Notes under the pieces: generated by a model
What the model saw: the letters and a program-made list of their open reading frames with translations, nothing else
Databases searched by the model: none
Told to the model about the DNA's origin: nothing
NCBI GenBank assembly: GCA_018653315.1
Contig: JABIAL010000007.1
Location: 11,348-75,347 of the forward strand
DNA length: 64,000 nucleotides
Direction: 5' to 3'
From: a bacterium
Lineage (GTDB): Bacteria; Patescibacteriota; Patescibacteriia; UBA1558; GWA2-36-10
In this document: piece after piece, positions 5,514-58,950 of the stretch
How positions within the stretch are numbered: position 1 is the stretch's first letter
Layout: each line of letters starts with the position of its first letter
Translations under genes and position numbers: made by a program

Positions 5514-5864
5514 TTATAAGGTGAAGCCCAGAAAGCTACCACCCCTGATCATTGTAATAACAACAATCAGTATAAACTCGATTAGGCCTATGCCCATGGC
5601 CAGGAATATTCTCCAGTCTCGTTGCTTGACTCCATACAATGTAATGATTGAAAAATTGTATATCAGAAGCACATAGGTTTCAACTGAAATTCCTTCTACT
5701 GAACTTGCGTTGATTGCTTTCAGTAGTTGAGGAAATTGAGCAAGAGGACTGATGAAGACCGTGAGGCCAAATAAAATTTCGTACCACTTGGAATCAAGAA
5801 ACCATGACAGCCGATGATTCCAATAGTTGAAAAACGGTTCGAACAATAGCCGCATGGTATTCAT
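5514..5864 (-). CDS. PQ-loop / SemiSWEET-like small membrane protein
   Basis: Three predicted TM helices with a PQ motif (SPLAQFPQLLKAI) in about 100 aa. AGGAG sits 9 nt upstream of the start. It is probably co-transcribed with the upstream minus-strand gene. Confidence 0.5.
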   Translation of the reverse strand: MNTMRLLFEPFFNYWNHRLSWFLDSKWYEILFGLTVFISPLAQFPQLLKAINASSVEGISVETYVLLIYNFSIITLYGVKQRDWRIFLAMGIGLIEFILIVVITMIRGGSFLGFTL

Positions 5865-5919
5865 GGTTTACATTCTCCTATTTCGTTTTTTTTTGTTTTC
5901 ATTGAGGAGATGTCTCTGC

Positions 5920-6354
5920 TTACTTCCAAGTGAAGTATAACATCGGCATAATGATGACAAGGGATTGGATCGCCATCGACCAGATAGTATAGGCCTTAGG
6001 CAAGTCATTTTTTTTGGCATAATAGAGCGTGCGGAATATAAGCTCTATCGTGATGACAGTGATTAGCATGAGCGCGATAAATGCAGCTATAAAGAAGCGC
6101 TCTGAATTGATTGTAAAAGCTAATATAAAAAATGTAATAGCAATTACGATGAGCACAGAGTCCAATGCAACAAATGCAGTGATGAGAGCGTTAGCTGATG
6201 AGATGCATAGAGCGATTAATACAATAATGAGCGTAACAACGAATGGCGTAAAGATTTCGAATAGCACATTGTCATCTGTAATCTGTCTGGTAATAAAAAA
6301 TGTTGCCAGAGTAATTATTGTTATAATAATTTGCCACCAATTAAGCTTAGACAT
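5920..6354 (-). CDS. hypothetical polytopic membrane protein
   Basis: 144 aa with 4-5 hydrophobic helices. GAGGA lies upstream of the ATG, and a consensus promoter lies at 6408-6436. Confidence 0.5.
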   Translation of the reverse strand: MSKLNWWQIIITIITLATFFITRQITDDNVLFEIFTPFVVTLIIVLIALCISSANALITAFVALDSVLIVIAITFFILAFTINSERFFIAAFIALMLITVITIELIFRTLYYAKKNDLPKAYTIWSMAIQSLVIIMPMLYFTWK

Positions 6355-6407
6355 AATTGTTTCCTCTTACTTAAAATTGTAATGTACTTTGTATATAGTA
6401 ATATAAT

Positions 6408-6436
6408 AATATAGTATGTATTTGCTACTTTGTCAA
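6408..6436 (-). promoter_or_regulatory. sigma70 promoter (minus-strand promoter family, copy A)
   Basis: On the minus strand it reads TTGACA-17-TATATT. Confidence 0.6.
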
Positions 6437-6512
6437 GATTAGGAGAAAAGAAAAAGCCCTCCGTATATTTTTATACGAAGGGTCTTTGATTTTGAAATGA
6501 AGACTTGATCAT

Positions 6513-6818
6513 CTATGCGACGATCATGTTAAATTTCGATCCATGATTTTTGCAAAAGAGCATCTTGATTCCGTGAAAGAATAGCTTAATGCTATTTATC
6601 AATAGCCATACAAGAATAAATGCAATTCCTGAGAGGGGGCCACTAAAAAATATTAGAGCTTCGGCATCATTGCGTTCACGATGATAGCGCTGCCATTGGT
6701 CACTACTTGCACAAGGTCCGGGTTCTCGATCTGGTTGTAGCTTTTTAGCTAACCATAGGCTACACATGCCCATGGTAATCCAGCTAATCACACCGATGGT
6801 TAAGTAAATGTATTCCAT
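6513..6818 (-). CDS. hypothetical small membrane protein
   Basis: 101 aa with 3 TM helices. GGAG lies upstream, and a consensus promoter lies at 6861-6889. Confidence 0.5.
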   Translation of the reverse strand: MEYIYLTIGVISWITMGMCSLWLAKKLQPDREPGPCASSDQWQRYHRERNDAEALIFFSGPLSGIAFILVWLLINSIKLFFHGIKMLFCKNHGSKFNMIVA

Positions 6819-6860
6819 TTTCTTTCTCCAGCTTCGTTAATTGTTTGTGTTATGCTCTGA

Positions 6861-6889
6861 ATTATAGCATATATTATATATTTTGTCAA
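6861..6889 (-). promoter_or_regulatory. sigma70 promoter with extended -10 (copy B)
   Basis: On the minus strand it reads TTGACA-17-(TGc)TATAAT. The roughly 45-bp cassette is almost identical to copy C at 7326. Confidence 0.7.
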
Positions 6890-6938
6890 GGAGAGCAAAA
6901 AAAGCAGGACCACCTTGTGGGGTGACCCTGAGACATGT

Positions 6939-7292
6939 TTACGCTAATGCGTAAGGATGTAATATAACATCGAAACGGTGATGATTATGAATATAACCGA
7001 AGGTAAATTCATTGTTCAAGTCGTTTTTCTTTGTGCAATCAGATTCGTATAATGCGACGGCTAATGCAATTGCTAAGGTGGCGACGCATATGGTGACGAG
7101 TGTGGTGAGTGCAACGTTTGTGTCAGTGGGTTTGTCGAGTGCGACGAATATAACGACGAGTGCGACGGTGAGTATGACGGCGAATACTGAGGACATAATG
7201 TCATCATTTATGGCATTTGTTATAATAAAGACAGCCAAGGTGATGATGATTATTATCAAATACTGCCAAAATAATTTACGCTTCTGATCCAT
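6939..7292 (-). CDS. hypothetical small membrane protein
   Basis: The start is placed at MDQKRKL, with AGGAG upstream. The longer track start at 7325 would lie upstream of the predicted transcription start site of the promoter at 7326-7354. Confidence 0.5.
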   Translation of the reverse strand: MDQKRKLFWQYLIIIIITLAVFIITNAINDDIMSSVFAVILTVALVVIFVALDKPTDTNVALTTLVTICVATLAIALAVALYESDCTKKNDLNNEFTFGYIHNHHRFDVILHPYALA

Positions 7293-7325
7293 CTTTCTTA
7301 CTCCTAGTTTTAAAGAACATATCAT

Positions 7326-7354
7326 ATAATAGCATATATTGTATATTTTGTCAA
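7326..7354 (-). promoter_or_regulatory. sigma70 promoter with extended -10 (copy C)
   Basis: On the minus strand it reads TTGACA-17-(TGc)TATTAT. It is near-identical to copy B and includes the upstream T-rich ...CTCC element. Confidence 0.7.
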
Positions 7355-7375
7355 GGAGGGCAAAAAAAGATGTAA

Positions 7376-7404
7376 TTGCCTGTTTATTTCAGTGATGGTA
7401 GAAT
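7376..7404 (+). promoter_or_regulatory. sigma70 promoter, copy 2 of the plus-strand cassette; likely leaderless
   Basis: Reads TTGCCT-17-TAGAAT. The -10 ends 6 nt before the ATG at 7411. Confidence 0.55.
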
Positions 7405-7410
7405 TATGGT

Positions 7411-7917
7411 ATGAAAAAAATAAGTTTACAAGCTGAGCAAATCATGACAACCAATGATTTTCCAGTGCATAATGAGCAAGTTTTAAAGATATACTTTAAA
7501 ATTGCCAAAGCTAATCCAGAATTGTTACCAGTCACTCCAGTGATACATAAATCACTTGGCTTGTCAGTGTTAGGAGAAAAAGTTCAAAATTTTTTTGAAA
7601 AGAATTCGGAGCTGGAATATATCATGTGTGATGGTAGTCATAAGACCACTGCTTTGACTTTGACTGATAATCCCATCAACGCCATGTTGCTTGAGAGTGA
7701 TAATGATATAAAGGAGTTTAAAGCTTTGATAGACTCTGGAGAAATTTTTAGTTTTGCTTGTAGCGATTCAATAAAAGAGATATTAAAAGATAAGGCAGAG
7801 CATTTTGCTGAAGCTGAATTTTTTCAAACTGTAAAATCTAAGACTGACAGAATGGTTGATGAGAAAGTAATTCCTCAGTATATGATTGATTTTTATAAAA
7901 AAATAAAATTAACATAA
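7411..7917 (+). CDS. ParB/sulfiredoxin-fold (DGQHR-like) domain protein
   Basis: The motif IMCDGSHKTTALTL resembles the DG(Q/S)H(R/K)..A signature of ParB/Srx/DndB-like folds. The protein is 168 aa and lies 5 nt upstream of the next gene. Confidence 0.4.
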   Translation: MKKISLQAEQIMTTNDFPVHNEQVLKIYFKIAKANPELLPVTPVIHKSLGLSVLGEKVQNFFEKNSELEYIMCDGSHKTTALTLTDNPINAMLLESDNDIKEFKALIDSGEIFSFACSDSIKEILKDKAEHFAEAEFFQTVKSKTDRMVDEKVIPQYMIDFYKKIKLT

Positions 7918-7921
7918 AAAT

Positions 7922-8677
7922 ATGACTAAAGATTTAACGAATCAATTTTTTGACATTAATAAATTTCCGGCTGAAGAAGGATTAGTTGTTTTCCCTATAT
8001 CAATGAATCGTATTTCAAATCCATCTCAAGGTGCTCAGATTTATTATGAATATTTAGGGCATTTTAATCCTGATAAAATTGTAAAATCAAATCCCAACTC
8101 AAAAGCTGGCGGAGTTTTTGTTTATACTGATTTTTTATATTTATACTCAGAAGAGCCTGCTTATAAATTAAAATATCGTTTTACGGACTTGATGATCAGC
8201 CACATGAAATCTTTTCAGAATATCTTAAAAAAAGATAAACATGTGGTTCAAGATTCTTTTTCTTACACAACATGGAGCCAACTTTATTTAAATAGTAATT
8301 TTGTTAGTTTTTTTGATAAACTTAAAAATATATATAAAAAAGATAAAGAATTTCAGAAATATTTGAAAGAGGATTTTGATAATCTTAAAAATACTAAATT
8401 AAGTTTTGATGAAAAGCAAATCGATTTTTTCTTAGAAGAACATTTAATGGCGCATTTAATAACTAAGGGACAAGTTTCTCTTTATAATAAATTTATTGAT
8501 GGGCGTGAAAATTGGATATTATTAGCTTATCCAGATAAACCACCGAAAGCCCTGACTTATTTATACCAAAAAGATTTTTTAAAATTAGATAATCCAAAAA
8601 ATGTTTACCAAGACTCCTGGTATGATTTAGAAGAGAAAAAGCTTTATGATCATCATAAGATTAATTTAAATATATGA
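7922..8677 (+). CDS. hypothetical protein, paralog A of a tandemly duplicated family
   Basis: 251 aa starting MTKDLTNQFFDINKFP..., about 55% identical to the ORF at 10450-11217. No family was recognised. Confidence 0.55.
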   Translation: MTKDLTNQFFDINKFPAEEGLVVFPISMNRISNPSQGAQIYYEYLGHFNPDKIVKSNPNSKAGGVFVYTDFLYLYSEEPAYKLKYRFTDLMISHMKSFQNILKKDKHVVQDSFSYTTWSQLYLNSNFVSFFDKLKNIYKKDKEFQKYLKEDFDNLKNTKLSFDEKQIDFFLEEHLMAHLITKGQVSLYNKFIDGRENWILLAYPDKPPKALTYLYQKDFLKLDNPKNVYQDSWYDLEEKKLYDHHKINLNI

Positions 8678-8760
8678 CTAAAGATTTAACGAATCAATTT
8701 TTTGACATTAATAAACTTCCGGCTGAAGAAGGAATGCCTGTTTATTTTGTTTTAAAATAA
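8674..8760 (+). pseudogene. 28-codon N-terminal fragment of the MTKDLTNQFFDINK paralog family
   Basis: Translates to MTKDLTNQFFDINKLPAEEGMPVYFVLK*. It overlaps the previous stop as ATGA. Its 3' end (gaatgcctgtttatttt) is fused to a piece of the plus-strand promoter repeat. Confidence 0.6.
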
Positions 8761-8803
8761 AAACCCCGTCCCTTTCTGTCTAGAAGACAAATTAGGACGA
8801 GGT
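8761..8803. terminator. hairpin between convergent genes (putative bidirectional terminator)
   Basis: The stem cgtcc...ggacg has an internal tgtct-aga-agaca hairpin, with an A-run to the 5' side. Confidence 0.4.
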
Positions 8804-8834
8804 GACGCGCTGCAATGCACGCGGTTAGTGGTTA

Positions 8835-9704
8835 TTAGGATTCAGCAATGTCAAAGAGTGTTTGTAGAACAGCAGCTGGTTCAATGCCTTTGAGTTTGAC
8901 GTCAAAACATAGGAAGCCAGATGTCCAACCATCTTCTATTTTTTCAACTACTTCAGAAAATACCATTAACATAAAATGCAATCCAATCGTCAGATCTTCA
9001 AGGATAAAGTAGGCGCTAGCCTCATGTACTTGAATATCCAAGATTTTATGATGTTGGACTTCTCCTTCATTGTTTGGCTTGAAGGAGATTTCTCTGCCAA
9101 CTAGGTATTTTTTCAACCGAGCTTCCATCATAGCTGGAGTGAGTTCAATTGCATCAGGCTCTGTTTCGGGCATCTTCAGGGGGACTTCCAAGAGGTGTTT
9201 CAGGAGTTTGGCCCAGTTTTTGGCTTGAACAGAGAGGTTTTCCTCCTTGCACCATTCTTTCCGATCCATCTCATTGGCAAGATTGTCAGGTTGAAAATGG
9301 TTAATCCAGTTGCGAGTATTGCTCAGGACAACCTTGGCACCATTAACCATAAATGGTGTTGGCCAGCCCTCACCTTCATTAAAGGCATCGAAGCAAGCCG
9401 AAGCTGGATGTTGGTGATGGTTACTGTCGGAAAATACTGCTACATACTTAAAGCCACGGATACTTGCGAGCAAGGCAATAAAGATACCGACTGGCATTTC
9501 ATCGCGCCAGCGGTGTCGTTCACCTTGCGCTTGCAAGCTAGGCGGCATCAAGAGATCAGCTAGTAAGACATCGAATTCGTGCTCGGACAGGATGAGCTCC
9601 TGGGCTTCATCATAAGTAGATACAACAGTCAGATCGTGTTCTGCTAGTTGAGCTATTGCAGCTTCTCTATGAATAGCATTGTCATCAAGAACTAAGATTT
9701 TCAT
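8835..9704 (-). CDS. response regulator: REC receiver domain plus an uncharacterised C-terminal domain
   Basis: The REC motifs are KILVLDD, ...FDVLLADLLMP (phospho-acceptor Asp) and ...VAVFSDS...GAKVVL. The C-terminal ~150 aa is unknown. The start was taken at MKILVLDD, 2 nt after the upstream stop; the track start is 9746. GC is about 45%, against about 30% in the flanks. Confidence 0.6.
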   Translation of the reverse strand: MKILVLDDNAIHREAAIAQLAEHDLTVVSTYDEAQELILSEHEFDVLLADLLMPPSLQAQGERHRWRDEMPVGIFIALLASIRGFKYVAVFSDSNHHQHPASACFDAFNEGEGWPTPFMVNGAKVVLSNTRNWINHFQPDNLANEMDRKEWCKEENLSVQAKNWAKLLKHLLEVPLKMPETEPDAIELTPAMMEARLKKYLVGREISFKPNNEGEVQHHKILDIQVHEASAYFILEDLTIGLHFMLMVFSEVVEKIEDGWTSGFLCFDVKLKGIEPAAVLQTLFDIAES

Positions 9705-9705
9705 T

Positions 9706-10251
9706 TCATTTTCCATTTCTGTAGGTGACACCAAGCTTGAAGACATCTGTTAAGATTTCTTCGAATGCCTCAAGGCTATCCTGCATAAATTCCAGGCTGC
9801 ACATGAGATCAAAGGCGTCTCCAAGATCGTCTCTGGTGAAAGATTTGAACGCAATTACGTTTTCATCTCCACCGGCAAGCTTGATTTCTGTTTGAACTTT
9901 TTGGGGGGACGTAAATGGCGTAATAAACACATCAATGCTTCCGTCTAATTCGGAAGCAGCTAGATTGAAAGTGTCAGACACCTCTTCGTCCCTCGTTTCT
10001 CTCGTACTCGTTAGCTCTGCCTGAGCTACGGTCAGAATGCGAACATCTACTGCAACTGGGGTTTGCTTAGCTGATCCGATGACAAAGTCAACGTCGAGCC
10101 CTGAAGCAAGAGCTTTTTCACCTGAGAAGGCAATAAGCTTTTTACTGTTGAGCGGATGACCGTTTTCATTGACCCTGATTTTCCACAGTTTTTTGCCGTG
10201 GGCTCCAGGGTCTGATCCGACCACAAAACCTTTTACTCTTTCCTGAGTCAT
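9706..10251 (-). CDS. hypothetical protein (possible N-terminal OB-fold-like region, acidic C-terminus)
   Basis: 181 aa, translationally coupled to the REC gene and with the same high-GC composition. No confident family. Confidence 0.45.
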   Translation of the reverse strand: MTQERVKGFVVGSDPGAHGKKLWKIRVNENGHPLNSKKLIAFSGEKALASGLDVDFVIGSAKQTPVAVDVRILTVAQAELTSTRETRDEEVSDTFNLAASELDGSIDVFITPFTSPQKVQTEIKLAGGDENVIAFKSFTRDDLGDAFDLMCSLEFMQDSLEAFEEILTDVFKLGVTYRNGK

Positions 10252-10397
10252 GATTCTTTCTCCTTTTTCCTTTTTACCTTTTTCCTTTTGGACTACTGCC
10301 TGTAATCCACCTTTTTAAAGAGCTATTCCCAAACCGGGGAATAATCAAAAGTAACATTTTTGTTTAATTTTGTCAATAGTAGCTAAAAATGCTTGAA

Positions 10398-10426
10398 TTG
10401 CCTGTTTATTTCAGTGGTGGTAAAAT
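10398..10426 (+). promoter_or_regulatory. sigma70 promoter, copy 3 of the plus-strand cassette
   Basis: Reads TTGCCT-17-TAAAAT, 24 nt upstream of the ATG at 10450. Confidence 0.6.
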
Positions 10427-10449
10427 ATATGTAATATTAACATAAAAAT

Positions 10450-11217
10450 ATGACTAAAGATTTAACGAATCAATTCTTTGACATTAATAAATTTCCAACT
10501 GAGGAAGGAATGCTTGTTTTTCCTATCTCCATGAGTCGCATTAGCAATGAATCGCAAAACGCTAAGAAATACTGGGAATATGTTAATTTTATCAATCCGA
10601 GCAAAGTCGATAAATCAAAAGCCGAATCAAAGGTTGGAGTAATTTTTATTTATGGAGATTATTTGTATCTGCATTCAGATGAAAAAGCTAGCGTTCTCAA
10701 GAGAAGATATATGGATTTAGTAACTACCCACAGAAATTCTTTTGGAAATTTACTTAAAAGTGACTCCCATTTAATCAATGATGGTTTTTCATATAAAGTT
10801 TGGAATCAATTTTATGTTGACTATGGTAGATTCATTTATTATTTTGAAGAATTAAAAAAAATCTACCAAAAAGATAAAGAATTTCAAAAATACATAAAAG
10901 AAGATTTTGATAATTTAGATAATAAAGATCTTAAGCTTGATGATAACCAGATAAATTTTTTCTTAGAAGAGCACCTGATGCTTCATTTAATTACTAAAGG
11001 ACAGATGAAATTAGAGAATAAATTTATTGATGGGCGTGAAAAGTGGATTTTAATGTCTTACCCAGGCAAGCCACTCAAAGCTCATATTTATTTACATCAA
11101 AAGAATTTTTTCAAATTAGATAATCCAAAAAATGTTTATCAAGATTCGTGGTATGACTTAGAAGGTAAAAAACTTTATGATTATAAAAAAATAGATTTAG
11201 AAACTGTTAAATTATAA
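10450..11217 (+). CDS. hypothetical protein, paralog B of the MTKDLTNQFFDINK family
   Basis: 255 aa, colinear with the ORF at 7922-8677. Confidence 0.55.
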   Translation: MTKDLTNQFFDINKFPTEEGMLVFPISMSRISNESQNAKKYWEYVNFINPSKVDKSKAESKVGVIFIYGDYLYLHSDEKASVLKRRYMDLVTTHRNSFGNLLKSDSHLINDGFSYKVWNQFYVDYGRFIYYFEELKKIYQKDKEFQKYIKEDFDNLDNKDLKLDDNQINFFLEEHLMLHLITKGQMKLENKFIDGREKWILMSYPGKPLKAHIYLHQKNFFKLDNPKNVYQDSWYDLEGKKLYDYKKIDLETVKL

Positions 11218-11231
11218 GAAATAAAATTATT

Positions 11232-11546
11232 ATGGAAATAAAAGAATTACAAAAACAAGCCTCAGAAATTTTTATAAATAATTCTAAAAGAGATGGTATC
11301 AAAGTTGATACAGATTATTTAATTTTAAAATTAACAGAGGAGCTTGGCGAGTTTGTTCAATCTTATATAGTACACGAAAGAAGATGTCGTCCAGCAAAGT
11401 ATTTATCTGCAAAAGAAGCTAAAAGAGAATTATCTAAAGAGCTAGCCGATGTTTTGGGTTTAGTTTTTTCAATTGCAGACAAATGTGATATCGATATCGA
11501 AGAAGCTTTAGTTAAAAAATGGATAACCAAAGAGTGGATTAAATAA
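11232..11546 (+). CDS. MazG-like nucleotide pyrophosphohydrolase (small all-alpha NTP-PPase)
   Basis: Contains LTEELGEF...ELADVLG..., which is the EExGE / ExxD pattern of short MazG-type proteins. It is 104 aa. Confidence 0.5.
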   Translation: MEIKELQKQASEIFINNSKRDGIKVDTDYLILKLTEELGEFVQSYIVHERRCRPAKYLSAKEAKRELSKELADVLGLVFSIADKCDIDIEEALVKKWITKEWIK

Positions 11547-11552
11547 TATAAT

Positions 11553-11822
11553 ATGGAAATAAAATTAATAAAAAAAGACGAAAGAGGCACAAAATATCAA
11601 GCCGAAGGCTTTAAGATTTTTTATAGAGATAAAAATACCATTACCGGCGATAACGCTGAAAATGTAGCAGAGTTAATATACTTCATTACTGGTTCAGCAG
11701 AAATTACTTTAGAAGATAAAACTTGGGTAGTTGAAGCTCCGGCTAAAGTAGAATTTCCCGCCAAAACTTATCATAAAATCAAGGCTTTGACGGACGTAAG
11801 TTTTATTTTATTTGAGAAATAA
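11553..11822 (+). CDS. hypothetical small protein, cupin-like beta-barrel (weak)
   Basis: 89 aa. The residue pattern is compatible with a small cupin. Weak call. Confidence 0.3.
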   Translation: MEIKLIKKDERGTKYQAEGFKIFYRDKNTITGDNAENVAELIYFITGSAEITLEDKTWVVEAPAKVEFPAKTYHKIKALTDVSFILFEK

Positions 11823-13125: not shown

Positions 13126-13201
13126 GCCGGAATAGCTCAGTTGGTAGAGCAGTAGTTTTGTAAACTACGGGTCACGGGTTCGAGTCCTGTTTCCGGCTCC
13201 A
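13126..13201 (+). tRNA. tRNA-Thr (anticodon UGU), CCA encoded
   Basis: The cloverleaf was folded by hand: acceptor gccggaa/ttccggc, D arm gctc..gagc, anticodon stem gtagt/actac with loop tttgtaa, T arm acggg-ttcgagt-cctgt, then CCA. Confidence 0.85.
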
Positions 13202-21469: not shown

Positions 21470-21632
21470 CAATTGAATAAGAATTATCAAGAGTACGGGG
21501 AGAGTTTTGGCTCAATGATCCGTCAGCAACCTGTTTTTTAAATAAGGTGCTAAGTCCAACCCTCAAGTGGGAAGATGATGTTTGGTCGTATTAACTTTCC
21601 TTTTGGGGAAAGATTTTTTAATTTTAAAATAA
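21470..21632 (+). promoter_or_regulatory. SAM-I (S-box) riboswitch with intrinsic terminator
   Basis: The S-box core matches: uUAUCAAGAG...GGGGAGAG..UGGCUCaAUGAuCCGuCAGCAACC...AAGGUGCUAAguCC...GAAGAUGAug. The P1 3' strand GAUGA pairs with UUAUC. The terminator is ctttcc-ttttgg-ggaaag followed by TTTTTTAATTTT, directly upstream of metK. Confidence 0.8.
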
Positions 21633-53392: not shown

Positions 53393-54145
53393 TTATGAGG
53401 CAATCCTCTCGAAAACTTTTGGTTTTTGGGGGTTTTTGATGAAATAGATCGGGAAAAAGGCGATGAAGTAGATGATGGGCAAGGATATTCCAAAAGATAA
53501 TCCAATATCCACTGATTCAATTCTCCCGATAATGAATGTGAAAATAATCGCGCCAATTATCACGCCTATTGCAACAGTAATGGCTTCTTTGCCTTTTTGA
53601 GAGGTTCCCATGAATATCCCAAAAAGTATTCCTATAATTATACCAGTAATCGCCAAAACGATTACAAAAGTTTGGTTTTCTGGACTCAAGCCATTATGCC
53701 ATTCTATTACTTGATGTGAAAAGTAGCTGCCAATCATAATGGCAAACATCAGGCCGAGAAAGTAGGCGGCCCAGTTTCCAGGTATAGTTTTTCTTTCAAC
53801 ATGCCGAGTATCCCAAGGCTTGTAATGGGTTTTTATTAAGTAGGTTGGAAACAGGAAAACCATATAACTGGTCAAGAATACTAATGCTGCTGGCGAGCTA
53901 GCATGTATAGCCAAGACTGAACATACGATACCTGCGATGATACTGCCAGCTAAATTGCTTATAATAAAACCAAAGATTACACCGATAAGCGCACCGGTGA
54001 TTATGCCACCGAGTAGATCACTATACATTTCCATTCGGTTTACTCCCAGAGCATTGTACCATTCCAATGCCTGAGGTAAGAAGTAACCACCAAGAGCAAC
54101 GACAGCCATCAGGCTGATCAAATAAATAAACCATCTCTTAGACAT
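53393..54145 (-). CDS. hypothetical polytopic membrane protein with internal duplication
   Basis: 250 aa. Two homologous halves each carry ALEWYNALG / VIEWHNGLS followed by a Gly-rich TM helix. A consensus promoter lies at 54185-54213. Confidence 0.5.
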   Translation of the reverse strand: MSKRWFIYLISLMAVVALGGYFLPQALEWYNALGVNRMEMYSDLLGGIITGALIGVIFGFIISNLAGSIIAGIVCSVLAIHASSPAALVFLTSYMVFLFPTYLIKTHYKPWDTRHVERKTIPGNWAAYFLGLMFAIMIGSYFSHQVIEWHNGLSPENQTFVIVLAITGIIIGILFGIFMGTSQKGKEAITVAIGVIIGAIIFTFIIGRIESVDIGLSFGISLPIIYFIAFFPIYFIKNPQKPKVFERIAS

Positions 54146-58294: not shown

Positions 58295-58395
58295 GCTTGT
58301 GACACGCTGTCTTCGATTCCGAGGTCGCTCAGACTCGAGGAGAGCAAGGCCGAATGTATGGTCAAAACGTTAAAATTATATCATTTCTACTATAC

Positions 58396-58425
58396 AAAAA
58401 ACTCGCTTTTATAGCGAGTTTTTTG
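58396..58425 (+). terminator. intrinsic terminator of the ribosomal-protein operon
   Basis: The stem actcgct...agcgagt is followed by T6. It overlaps the -35 (TTGACA) of the next gene. Confidence 0.7.
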
Positions 58426-58488
58426 ACATTTAGAGTATTTAGTATTAAGATAATAAAAAAGTTCATACAACATAGCCTGGAGGGCACG

Positions 58489-58950
58489 ATGAGTTTAAAA
58501 ATTGGTGATATCGCGACTGTTATCTCAGAAGATAATCCTTTTGAAAGAGCTCAAGGCAAGATAGTTAGCATCAACGGAACAGAGGTGGAGTTCGAAATTG
58601 GTCCTGCAAAGCGTTTTTTATTGGATTATGAAATGCGGAGAGATGGTGATTTCACGGTTACTGTTGGTCTAGCTTCTTTGCGTAAAGATGAAGAATGGTC
58701 TTTGGATAACAGACTGAGCCATGCTTTTGGTAGCACCAAGTTTTTGCAGGTTTATACACTAACAGATGCTTTGGATCCAGAAAAACCATGCATGCGAGCT
58801 AATTGCAACGGCAAGCGTCAACAACGAATCATGGTTAATGTCTGGGGCAGTGCACTTGAATACGATGTTTGTGATACTTGTGCAGCACAGTTTCACGGGA
58901 AGTGGCTGGAGGAATTTCCAGTCAGACAAACAGACAAAAATCTGGCTTAA
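58489..58950 (+). CDS. hypothetical Cys-containing protein (CxxxxC...CxxC), higher-GC stand-alone gene
   Basis: The SD GGAGGG lies 5 nt upstream, and the gene has its own terminator. It is about 42% GC. The start was taken at MSLKIGD; the track start at 58354 lies upstream of the operon terminator. Confidence 0.5.
   Translation: MSLKIGDIATVISEDNPFERAQGKIVSINGTEVEFEIGPAKRFLLDYEMRRDGDFTVTVGLASLRKDEEWSLDNRLSHAFGSTKFLQVYTLTDALDPEKPCMRANCNGKRQQRIMVNVWGSALEYDVCDTCAAQFHGKWLEEFPVRQTDKNLA

What the first reader, a model, noticed from the sequence alone, without database searches (positions are those of the whole stretch)
8761..10330. Compositionally foreign two-gene response-regulator module between tandem paralogs
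GC here is about 45%, against about 30% in the flanks. The only two genes inside point against the local gene flow. One is a 181-aa protein. The other is a REC-domain protein with an unrecognised ~150-aa output domain, and the two are translationally coupled with a 2-nt gap. The island lies exactly between paralog A plus a 28-codon duplicate fragment (8674-8760) and paralog B, which suggests insertion or recombination at a tandem-duplication junction. Neither domain other than REC was recognised, so this may be an undescribed signalling or effector pair acquired horizontally.
Basis: partly seen in the sequence, partly recalled or inferred. Interest (0 to 1): 0.72.

Follow-up and report, generated by a model that had tools for sequence, protein, structure and literature searches.

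The report
Mobile GC-rich receiver gene cassette
The GC-rich island is real: it is a self-contained two-gene cassette (an atypical receiver-domain protein plus an uncharacterised partner protein) of a kind that appears to spread laterally among CPR/Patescibacteria and is GC-richer than almost every genome it sits in; its function is undescribed.

The parts
7330..7423 (.). Resident bidirectional promoter block P1. Its plus-strand promoter is TTGCCT-17-TAGAAT at 7376-7404. Its minus-strand promoter is TTGACA-17-TATTAT at 7354-7326. It contains the first copy of the 13-mer TGCCTGTTTATTT (7377-7389).
   Evidence: (repeat D5)
7922..8677 (+). Paralog A, 251 aa. It matches no known family. It is 74% identical in DNA to paralog B.
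8674..8760 (+). A 28-codon copy of the paralog 5' end, overlapping the stop of paralog A (ATGA). The paralog-derived part ends at about 8734. The second copy of the 13-mer follows at 8735-8747, which is the point where the sequence switches to island sequence.
   Evidence: (D3)
8753..8822 (-). Intrinsic terminator of the cassette. It has a small hairpin at 8822-8805, a long hairpin at 8803-8763 and a U-tract at 8762-8753. This is the left edge of the island.
   Evidence: free energy -34.1 kcal/mol, z = -6.1, 0 of 200 shuffles as stable
8835..9185 (-). REC303 residues 188-303 plus the stop codon. This is a lineage-specific C-terminal tail with no homolog anywhere. It is poorly modelled (pLDDT about 30-60). 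Its GC is 0.40.
9186..9320 (-). REC303 residues 143-187. This extension is conserved across the family (strands plus a helix, invariant K176 and W178) and is confidently modelled.
9321..9704 (-). REC303 residues 15-142, the atypical receiver domain. It has D21/D22, D64 (DLLMP) and S106, plus the motif HHQHPASACFD at 110-120. The probable true start is M15 at 9704; the longest ORF starts at 9746.
9706..10251 (-). p181, a two-domain protein. The N-domain (aa 1-76) is beta-rich. The C-domain (aa 93-178) is alpha/beta. It belongs to a family named only from CPR bacteria. Its TGA stop lies 1 nt before the receiver gene's ATG.
10252..10345 (-). Conserved 5' leader of p181. It contains the hairpin UUCCC/GGGAA (10343-10324), the motif ATAGCTCTTT (10326-10317), the 8-bp hairpin UGGAUUAC-AGGCA-GUAGUCCA (10309-10289) and AAAAAGG repeats running up to the ribosome-binding site.
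10348..10376 (-). Putative p181 promoter: TTGACA at 10376-10371, a 17-nt spacer, then TG-n-TACTTT at 10353-10348. L036 has TTGACA-17-TATAGA at the same place.
   Evidence: read from the alignment. It was not called by the consensus scan.
10352..10445 (.). Second copy (P1') of the promoter block, 70% identical to P1. It carries TTGCCT-17-TAAAAT at 10398-10426, which would drive paralog B. It contains the third copy of the 13-mer (10399-10411). This is the right edge of the island.
   Evidence: (D5)
10450..11217 (+). Paralog B, 255 aa. It is the copy closer to relatives in other genomes (71-86% identity, against 58-62% for paralog A).

Best explanation
The island is one laterally acquired copy of a small promoter-to-terminator gene cassette that circulates among CPR/Patescibacteria.

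Shown:
- It carries a putative promoter, a ~90-nt conserved leader, two translationally coupled genes and a strong terminator.
- Gene 2 has a true receiver fold. It keeps the acidic pair, the phospho-acceptor aspartate and the beta4 Ser/Thr. It carries a family-invariant His/Cys cluster (HHxHPASACFD) right after beta4.
- Gene 1 belongs to a second family named only from CPR bacteria that recurs next to receiver-type genes.
- Both families are GC-richer than their hosts.
- Near-identical receiver cassettes sit in unrelated genomic contexts.

Inferred:
- The two proteins act together as a small switch. The receiver's state would be set either by phosphorylation of D64 from a kinase encoded elsewhere or a small-molecule donor, or by metal or redox chemistry at the His/Cys cluster.
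- That state would control binding to p181 and to the orphan C-terminal tail. p181's small beta-barrel N-domain would bind nucleic acid, possibly its own purine-rich leader, giving autoregulated control of expression.
- The cassette was joined into the 5' end of the downstream paralog by recombination at a 13-nt microhomology with a resident promoter block. That event left a 28-codon paralog stump and a second promoter copy that keeps paralog B expressed.
For: Cassette anatomy: terminator; leader almost invariant in the window, L036 and L037 although the proteins are only 53-78% identical; coupled genes.

Family: 98 clusters at 35-60% identity; the only organism names given are Nomura-, Taylor- and Berkelbacteria; invariant H110, H111, P114 and A117.

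Pair conservation: in L036 a p181 homolog overlaps a divergent family member by 4 nt. p181-type ORFs adjoin receiver genes in L047, L052, L080, L108 and, more weakly, L093 and L068-72. From the p181 side, the downstream partner in L121 has a weak Pfam receiver hit.

Composition as a family trait: the gene is GC-richer than its flanks in 55 of 56 loci, mean +0.105, with GC3 +0.19. It has the highest GC3 in 18 of 35 loci, and the slope on host GC is 0.39. p181 modules exceed their hosts by 8 to 19 points.

Lateral spread: L066 against L068-72 is 92% identical in DNA with dS 0.20 and 0 nt of flank aligned. L009 (Nomurabacteria) against L010 (Berkelbacteria) is 84% identical with dS 0.41, and 78% of four-fold sites are identical. 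Copies at 80-83% identity sit in hosts of 47% against 31-38% GC. The shared segment includes up to 220 nt upstream and 160 nt downstream.

This window: p181 against L037 is 88% identical in DNA, with dS 0.19 and omega 0.64. In L037 the module abuts a uvrB fragment with GC3 0.55, while the window's genes average GC3 0.24.

Junction: the paralog 5' end is duplicated on both sides, the promoter block is duplicated, and the exact 13-mer occurs three times where none is expected.

Leader link: the motif ATAGCTCTTT occurs about 150 nt upstream of the stand-alone receiver genes in L010, L053 and L107 and in the p181 leaders of the window and L037. Two off-target hits were seen, where about 1.6 were expected across the fetched loci.
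Against: - No empty-site genome was found. The 22 genomes with a paralog relative share no other gene with this locus.
- All six fetched contigs of this species carry the island at 99.8% identity or more.
- No integrase or transposase is annotated within 8 kb on either side, the cassettes have no terminal inverted repeats, and the nearest tRNA is about 2.8 kb away.
- The window's receiver domain is saturated at synonymous sites against every sampled stand-alone cassette. Recent transfer therefore rests on p181 and L037 only.
- L037 is a 908-nt contig at 1.7x coverage, and its uvrB junction could be an assembly chimera.
- The functional model is inference. The p181 model is poor (pLDDT 44.5). 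Its cold-shock resemblance is sub-threshold. No partner kinase is known. The beta5 lysine appears to be Asn143.
- A systematic GC excess could also come from selection and not from transfer.
Confidence: 0.6

Rival explanations
1. The pair is native and vertically inherited. Its high GC would reflect selection on these genes, for example strong expression-linked codon bias or constraints on the mRNA, and not foreign origin. The odd junction would be an unrelated local duplication.
For: The GC excess is seen in almost every host, so it does not mark recent arrival. The island is fixed in the population. No mobility genes are present.
Against: Low dS (0.2-0.4) between copies in class-level-different lineages with completely unrelated flanks. 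p181 is 88% identical in DNA to a copy that abuts a gene fragment with GC3 0.55. No ORF outside the minus-strand outlier set exceeds GC3 0.34 in this window. Family members have variable neighbours.
Confidence: 0.13
2. The pair is a conflict module, meaning a toxin-antitoxin, abortive-infection or anti-defence system. The receiver-like protein would sense or regulate, and p181 or the orphan tail would be the effector. Its selfish or defensive role would explain why it spreads and why it sits in a variable region.
For: The pair is compact and translationally coupled. Its distribution is patchy and it transfers laterally. p181 evolves fast (omega 0.64). The surrounding 5-13 kb holds only accessory genes. 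A p181 homolog lies beside an integrase and an IS200/IS605 transposase. Fic and PIN/RHH genes lie near some family members.
Against: No PADLOC hit passes threshold; the best is E = 0.0015 on the N-terminal receiver part only. No nuclease, pore or NTPase motif is present. No residue of p181 that looks catalytic is invariant. The family was not found on viral contigs. Many family members are single genes with no partner.
Confidence: 0.15
3. REC303 is an ordinary two-component response regulator whose histidine kinase is encoded elsewhere in the genome. p181 would be an unrelated co-transcribed gene, and the C-terminal tail a divergent DNA-binding output.
For: It has the receiver fold and keeps DD, D64 and S106. 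Orphan regulators are common (general knowledge).
Against: It scores below the Pfam cut-off. The beta5 lysine is apparently missing, and an invariant His/Cys cluster not typical of receivers is present. The tail has no helix-turn-helix or any other match. Most family members have no output domain at all. p181-type genes recur next to receiver-type genes. No kinase is annotated within 8 kb on either side.
Confidence: 0.1
4. The island is an assembly or binning artefact, that is, foreign DNA wrongly joined into this contig.
For: The composition changes sharply at both edges.
Against: The same junctions appear in six fetched contigs from different samples and two assemblers, out of 12 contigs read, at 99.8-100% identity.
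Confidence: 0.01

Closest known systems
Single-domain and atypical receiver proteins (CheY-like regulators and pseudo-receivers) of the receiver superfamily, Pfam PF00072
   Different: Below the Pfam gathering score. The beta5 Lys is apparently Asn. There is an invariant HHxHPASACFD cluster after beta4. There is a conserved 45-aa C-terminal extension, and many members carry a variable insert of about 50 aa between alpha2 and beta3. Organism names are CPR only. The gene is GC-rich in every host and moves laterally. No kinase partner is known.
Classical two-component response regulators with an output domain (OmpR, NarL, NtrC types)
   Same: An N-terminal receiver followed by a C-terminal region. 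Operon-like coupling with a second gene.
   Different: The C-terminal 115 aa match no output domain and exist only in this species. The coupled gene is not a histidine kinase: it has no H-box or ATPase motifs and no Pfam hit.
Small autonomous gene cassettes that ride without their own recombinase (phage 'morons', genomic islets)
   Same: A promoter-to-terminator unit of 1-1.7 kb. Its composition differs from the host. It is inserted between or inside resident genes in the opposite orientation. No recombinase of its own.
   Different: Not inside a prophage, and the family was not found on viral contigs. There is no integron attC-like end or terminal repeat. The same cassette family recurs across many CPR lineages with its own conserved leader.
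Cold-shock domain / OB-fold nucleic-acid-binding proteins (for the p181 N-domain)
   Same: About 75 aa and beta-rich. A weak match to the last two strands of cold-shock domains recurs in Pfam, NCBIfam and PDB searches.
   Different: All matches are below threshold, and profile-profile probability is only 16% over 17 columns. The RNP1/RNP2 aromatic motifs are absent. The domain is fused to an unrelated alpha/beta C-domain.
TrmB-family regulators with divergently transcribed target genes
   Same: In 20 of 48 non-redundant loci a TrmB-type HTH gene lies within 1.5 kb of the receiver gene, almost always upstream and divergent.
   Different: The window has no TrmB-like gene in 64 kb. Here the divergent neighbour is paralog B, behind a duplicated resident promoter.

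Membership tests
Receiver (REC) domain superfamily | (beta-alpha)5 flavodoxin-like receiver fold | tested here: met
Receiver (REC) domain superfamily | Acidic pair after beta1 and phospho-acceptor Asp at the end of beta3 | tested here: met
   D21/D22 and D64 align with CheY D12/D13 and D57 and with PF00072 positions 5/6 and 49. In the 61-sequence alignment D22 and D64 are invariant and D21 is at least 90% conserved.
Receiver (REC) domain superfamily | Ser/Thr at the end of beta4 | tested here: met
   Strand 101-105 is followed by S106. Thr occupies this column in at least 90% of the family.
Receiver (REC) domain superfamily | Lys at the end of beta5 | tested here: inconclusive
   Strand 137-142 is followed by N143, which is nearly invariant. 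The profile alignment to CheY covers only beta1-beta3, and no residue-level superposition was available. Invariant K176 could substitute, but this was not tested.
Receiver (REC) domain superfamily | Score above the Pfam gathering threshold for PF00072 | tested here: not met
   19.3 bits against a cut-off of 30.2, with only residues 17-68 matched. Only 5 of 98 homologs carry a precomputed PF00072 hit.
Two-component system (kinase plus regulator) | Cognate histidine kinase adjacent or in the same operon | tested here: not met
   The genes called within 8 kb on either side carry no HisKA or HATPase_c hits. p181 has no Pfam or NCBIfam match. The rest of the genome could not be examined.
Two-component system (kinase plus regulator) | Phosphotransfer to the receiver Asp | not testable with these tools
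   Needs biochemistry: acetyl phosphate or a kinase, Phos-tag gels, and a D64A mutant.
Horizontally acquired genomic islet | Composition deviating from the host | tested here: met
   GC 0.443 against 0.327, the window maximum. The same offset is seen in 55 of 56 loci of the family, so this feature alone does not discriminate.
Horizontally acquired genomic islet | Near-identical copies in unrelated genomes or contexts | tested here: met
   For the family: 84-92% DNA identity, dS 0.2-0.4, and no flank aligned. For this island: p181 is 88% identical to L037 with dS 0.19. The caveat is that L037 is a short, low-coverage contig.
Horizontally acquired genomic islet | Empty site in a related genome | tested here: inconclusive
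   22 genomes carry a paralog relative, but as a single copy and with no shared synteny. All six fetched contigs of this species carry the island.
Horizontally acquired genomic islet | Mobility gene, tRNA target or terminal repeats | tested here: not met
   No integrase or transposase within 8 kb on either side. The nearest tRNAs are at 13126 and 13427. No terminal inverted repeats. Only a 13-nt direct repeat that is part of a resident promoter.
Toxin-antitoxin or anti-phage defence system | Match to a known defence or toxin family | tested here: not met
   PADLOC: the only hit is E = 0.0015 on the N-terminal receiver part, with nothing for p181 or the tail. PHROGs: only weak matches to the N-terminal part of the receiver (residues 10-69).
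Cold-shock domain (p181 N-domain) | Profile-level similarity over the whole five-stranded barrel, including the RNP motifs | tested here: inconclusive
   Sub-threshold local matches: NCBIfam CspC at E = 0.026, PDB CSDE1 at E = 0.13-0.3, and Pfam CSD at 0.062 in 1 of 39 members. The AF2 model is too poor to use.
Phage- or virus-borne gene | Presence on viral contigs | tested here: not met
   No relative of the receiver family and no copy of the leader in IMG/VR. No BFVD structure match at E of 0.001 or better.

The most novel reading that the evidence does not exclude
CPR bacteria host an unrecognised class of small (1-1.7 kb) GC-rich promoter-to-terminator cassettes. These would spread between class-level lineages without any recombinase of their own, perhaps through natural transformation and microhomology joining. 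They encode a new kind of receiver-based switch: a receiver with a His/Cys cluster, with or without a p181 partner, often opposite a TrmB-type regulator, and sharing a conserved leader element. Such a switch could act in episymbiont-host interaction or in genetic conflict. The window's island would be one such cassette, caught with its insertion scars.
Probability: 0.3. Interest if true: 0.8.

Novelty: new variant of a known kind. Interest (0 to 1): 0.6.

Why it matters
CPR/Patescibacteria have tiny genomes, and signalling in them is poorly understood. I found no paper describing this receiver family (four full-text searches).

Here is a receiver-type protein family, named only from CPR bacteria, that is highly conserved (about 78-84% amino-acid identity between copies labelled Nomurabacteria and Berkelbacteria) and evidently mobile. 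It is linked to two further gene families: p181 and TrmB-type regulators.

If the pair is a working switch, it gives a concrete and testable entry point into regulation in these uncultured organisms.

The compositional behaviour also matters for method. A gene that is about 10 GC points richer than almost every host shows that a GC island can be a family trait and not a timestamp of transfer. The promoter-to-terminator cassettes without recombinases raise the question of how genes move between CPR lineages.

Tried and rejected
- Assembly chimera: rejected.
- Phage origin: the receiver family and the leader motif were not found in IMG/VR. BFVD gave only weak generic receiver matches.
- Empty-site test: the genome scan with paralog B found 22 single-copy relatives with no shared synteny, so the test could not be done.
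- p181 in JGI metagenomes by pattern scan: nothing found. The 39-sequence alignment was too diverse for that tool.
- p181 structure: the AF2 model from 5 sequences was too poor (pLDDT 44.5) to give to a fold search.
- p181 N-domain as a cold-shock domain: only local, sub-threshold matches.
- p181 C-domain against PDB sequences: nothing.
- Orphan C-terminal tail of REC303 as a p181-C-like domain: rejected (hhalign probability 0.5%). It has no homolog among the ORFs of the 90 family and p181 loci searched.
- The 229-aa gene upstream of the distant p181 homolog as a hidden receiver: rejected.
- Leader as a known RNA: no Rfam match. Its overall fold energy is unremarkable (z = -0.79). Three sequences are too few to assess covariation.
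- Transposon-like ends: none.
- TrmB-like gene in the window: none.
- AFDB Foldseek library: unavailable.
- Literature: four full-text searches found nothing on this family.
Full report
**1.

Window 8761-10330 has 44.3% GC. The window mean is 32.7%. For 1570-nt windows outside the island the mean is 32.5%, the sd 2.8 points and the maximum 40.6%. The window-wide GC maximum falls exactly at 8761. The immediate flanks are at 22-30%.

The excess is present at all three codon positions. GC1/2/3 are 0.58/0.32/0.41 for the receiver gene and 0.56/0.38/0.43 for p181. The two paralogs have about 0.38/0.21/0.19-0.25.

Two minus-strand ORFs fill the island: 10251..9706 (181 aa, 'p181') and 9746..8835 (303 aa, 'REC303'). 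55 of 67 long ORFs in the window are on the plus strand.

The 28-codon ORF at 8674-8760 is a copy of the paralog 5' end. It overlaps the stop of paralog A as ATGA.

The locus is colinear and at least 99.8% identical in six contigs fetched from several samples and two assemblers, out of 12 contigs read. It is therefore not a chimera, and it is fixed in the sampled population.

- All 60 aligned homologs start at MKILV, which is M15 at 9704. The spacing is therefore TGA-A-ATG, a 1-nt gap.
- The 'about 150-aa output domain' is a family-conserved extension of about 45 aa plus a lineage-specific tail of about 115 aa.
- A second block of minus-strand genes with raised GC3 lies at 5514-7325.

**2. The island is a complete expression cassette.**

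Downstream of REC303 there is a very strong intrinsic terminator: hairpins at 8822-8763 followed by a U-tract. Its free energy is -34.1 kcal/mol, with z = -6.1.

Upstream of p181 lies a leader of about 90 nt. About 65 nt of it are almost invariant in the window, L036 and L037, although the p181 proteins are only 53-78% identical. The leader holds:
- a small hairpin (UUCCC/GGGAA);
- the motif ATAGCTCTTT;
- an 8-bp hairpin, UGGAUUAC-AGGCA-GUAAUCCA, which carries one G-U change in the window;
- AAAAAGG repeats that run into the ribosome-binding site.

No Rfam family matches. A TTGACA-17-TG-n-TACTTT promoter can be read at 10376-10348, and L036 has TTGACA-17-TATAGA at the same place. The consensus scan did not call it.

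**3. REC303 is an atypical receiver of a family known only from CPR bacteria.**

At the sequence level only residues 17-68 match Pfam Response_reg, at 19.3 bits against a cut-off of 30.2.

D21/D22 and D64 align with CheY D12/D13 and D57. The strand at 101-105 is followed by S106, which is Thr in at least 90% of the family. The strand at 137-142 is followed by N143, where receivers normally have Lys. That last point rests on the model's secondary structure only.

The family comprises 98 clusters at 35-60% identity. The only organism names given are Nomura-, Taylor- and Berkelbacteria. Most members are stand-alone proteins of 170-240 aa.

Its invariant columns include H110, H111, P114 and A117, within the motif HHxHPASACFD directly after beta4, and K176 and W178 in a conserved C-terminal extension.

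Residues 188-303 of REC303 have no homolog in 5.8 billion clusters, nor among the ORFs of 90 related loci searched. They are poorly modelled. They are not related to the p181 C-domain.

**4. p181 belongs to a second CPR family that is linked to receiver genes.**

The word-indexed search found 4 relatives. An exhaustive profile search found 125 representatives. These are full-length proteins of 180-200 aa, stand-alone N-domains of about 80 aa, stand-alone C-domains of about 90 aa, and a few fusions of about 360 aa without Pfam domains. Source names are Parcubacteria, Peregrinibacteria and Patescibacteria.

No residue that looks catalytic is invariant.

The N-domain repeatedly gives weak, sub-threshold matches to the last two strands of cold-shock domains. 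The profile-profile probability is only 16%. The C-domain matches nothing.

The linkage evidence is as follows.
- In L036 a 53%-identical p181 homolog overlaps by 4 nt a divergent member of the receiver family (31% identity, E = 4e-16).
- L037, which is 88% identical in DNA, continues into the receiver gene's start before the contig ends.
- Among 80 further loci of the receiver family, p181-type ORFs lie next to the receiver gene in L047, L052, L080 and L108, and more weakly in L093 and L068-72.
- From the p181 side, three of four long contigs have a co-directional gene with no Pfam family above threshold directly downstream. One of these (L121) has a weak Pfam receiver hit. Another (L123) looks receiver-like at its N-terminus, by eye only.

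The commonest neighbour of the receiver family is a different gene: a divergently transcribed TrmB-type HTH regulator, found in 20 of 48 non-redundant loci. The window has none in its 64 kb.

**5. The GC excess is a family trait.**

In 56 non-redundant loci the receiver gene is GC-richer than its flanks in 55. The mean excess is +10.5 points and the median +10.7. GC3 exceeds that of the other ORFs by 19 points on average.

The gene has the highest GC3 of all ORFs in 18 of 35 loci and is in the top two in 24. Gene GC follows host GC only weakly (slope 0.39, r = 0.41), so the family has its own set-point near 55-60% GC.

p181 modules are likewise 8-19 points richer than their hosts.

The window's +10.5 points is therefore exactly what is typical for the family. 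Taken alone, it says nothing about when the island arrived.

**6. The family moves laterally.**

Receiver genes 92% identical in DNA (L066 against L068-72, dS 0.20) sit in contigs where none of up to 9.9 kb of flank aligns.

L009 is labelled Nomurabacteria and L010 Berkelbacteria. They share 84% DNA identity, with dS 0.41. 78% of their four-fold sites are identical, where I estimate about 34% from base composition alone. None of 12 kb of flank aligns.

Copies at 80-83% identity sit in hosts of 47% against 31-38% GC.

The shared segment runs up to 220 nt upstream and about 160 nt downstream of the coding sequence. It therefore includes a promoter, a structured leader and a terminator. It has no terminal inverted repeats.

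The 10-mer ATAGCTCTTT lies about 150 nt upstream of the stand-alone receiver genes in L010, L053 and L107, and also in the p181 leaders of the window and L037, always in sense orientation. Two off-target hits were seen, one in the fetched loci and one in the window. I estimate about 1.6 would be expected by chance in the loci. The p181-led module and the stand-alone cassettes therefore share a leader element.

**7. Evidence for this particular island.**

The window's p181 differs from the L037 copy by dS 0.19 and dN 0.12 (omega 0.64). In L037 the module abuts a uvrB fragment with GC3 0.55. The window's ORFs average GC3 0.24 with sd 0.07. That points to transfer between compositionally very different hosts.

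There is a caveat. L037 is a 908-nt contig at 1.7x coverage. Its junction falls where the leader, read antisense, encodes KELFP, which resembles UvrB's KEFFP (UvrB sequence recalled from memory). It could therefore be a chimera.

The window's receiver domain itself is saturated at synonymous sites against every sampled stand-alone cassette (58-59% amino-acid identity). It belongs to a poorly sampled branch.

**8. The junctions.**

The paralog 5' end, including 19 nt upstream of the ATG, is present three times at about 89-94% identity: 7903-7991, 8655-8743 and 10431-10519. The rest of the paralogs is only about 72-74% identical.

A 94-nt promoter block (7330-7423) is repeated at 10352-10445. 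Its plus-strand promoter, TTGCCT-17-TAAAAT, now precedes paralog B.

The exact 13-mer TGCCTGTTTATTT, which covers most of that promoter's -35 hexamer (TTGCCT), occurs at 7377, 8735 and 10399. Allowing one mismatch, 0.39 matches were expected and six were found.

At 8735 the 13-mer marks the switch from paralog-derived sequence to the island's terminator tail. Paralog codons 17-24 resemble this promoter stretch, which offers a microhomology.

My reading is inference. The cassette and a copy of the promoter block were joined into the 5' end of the downstream paralog by microhomology-mediated or Campbell-like recombination. That left the 28-codon stump and a promoter that keeps paralog B expressed.

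No integrase or transposase is annotated within 8 kb on either side. The nearest tRNAs are about 2.8-3.1 kb away.

**9. What could not be shown.**

No related genome shares this locus. The 22 genomes with a paralog relative have a single copy and none of the neighbouring genes. There is therefore no empty site.

The function of the pair is not known. No defence, toxin or phage family matches. No histidine kinase is annotated nearby. I found no paper that describes the family.

**10. Verdict.**

The island is a member of a laterally spreading, intrinsically GC-rich cassette family of CPR bacteria. It encodes an atypical receiver protein together with a recurrent partner protein.

The most likely working model is a two-protein switch with an autoregulated leader. 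That model is inferred, not shown.

I rate the finding as a new variant of a known kind, namely receiver-based signalling proteins and genomic islets. Interest is moderate to high, because both gene families, their shared leader, their composition and their mode of spread are undescribed.

Noticed in passing
window 5514-7325 (minus strand): A second block of minus-strand genes with raised GC (0.37-0.41) and GC3 (0.41-0.45) lies just left of the P1-g168-paralog A unit. It comprises a SemiSWEET/PQ-loop transporter (5514-5864) and three small membrane proteins (5920-6354, 6513-6818, 6939-7325). The region therefore alternates GC-rich minus-strand blocks with AT-rich plus-strand units headed by the same promoter block.
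   Followed up: partly
window 7922-8677 and 10450-11217; loci L014-L035: The flanking paralogs belong to a family of about 250 aa with no Pfam, NCBIfam or PDB match. Members occur in genomes labelled CPR bacteria and in genomes labelled DPANN archaea (Woese-, Pace-, Micr- and Nanoarchaeota) at 45-71% identity, always as a single copy in unrelated contexts. That suggests cross-domain transfer of this family as well.
   Followed up: partly
L037 1-335 (compare window 10290-10334): In the 88%-identical copy the cassette leader runs directly into an antisense, 5'-truncated uvrB. The conserved leader motif, read antisense, encodes KELFP, which resembles the UvrB motif KEFFP (recalled from memory). 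This could be a uvrB remnant carried in the leader, a recombination at a microhomology, or a chimera in a contig with 1.7x coverage.
   Followed up: partly
L009 5783-6000, L010 5781-6000, L053 1729-1881: Stand-alone receiver cassettes share a conserved leader of about 220 nt. It has a promoter, the ATAGCTCTTTGATAA motif and a long imperfect hairpin with 23-nt arms (TGAGTAGC...GCTACTCA). L009 and L010 also share about 100 nt beyond the terminator. No Rfam search was run on these loci.
   Followed up: partly
loci L054, L057, L061, L062, L068-L072, L079, L082 and others: A TrmB-family HTH regulator of about 250 aa (PF01978, E down to 5e-18) is the commonest neighbour of the receiver family, lying divergently upstream. 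A TrmB gene also lies upstream of the distant p181 homolog P0102.
   Followed up: yes
context of P0102 (L007 981-1409; 20-kb JGI contig): The 40%-identical p181 homolog lies next to an IS200/IS605-type Y1 transposase. It is also about 2.7 kb from a tyrosine recombinase, near S15 and NYN genes. A similar set of genes (XerD-like recombinase, S15, NYN) lies near a receiver-family gene in L038.
   Followed up: no
window 53393-54145 (minus strand) and 58354-58950 (plus strand): Two further ORFs (250 and 198 aa) have raised GC3 (0.41 and 0.34) and no Pfam match. They may be other foreign genes.
   Followed up: partly
window 21481-21581 (plus strand): A SAM riboswitch (Rfam RF00162, 63.7 bits).
   Followed up: no
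window 11232-11822 (plus strand): Directly downstream of paralog B lie a MazG-like pyrophosphohydrolase (104 aa) and a small cupin (89 aa), followed by small membrane and bPH-like proteins. The whole stretch from 5 to 13 kb, between a methionine aminopeptidase gene and tRNA-Thr/L33/tRNA-Trp, holds only accessory-looking genes.
   Followed up: no
window 7411-7917 and 8650-8677: The C-terminal residues of the 168-aa gene upstream of paralog A (YKKIKLT) resemble the C-termini of the paralogs (HHKINLNI and YKKIDLETVKL). The DNA similarity between the two units starts 43 nt upstream of the paralog start codons. This hints that an older paralog copy once preceded paralog A.
   Followed up: no
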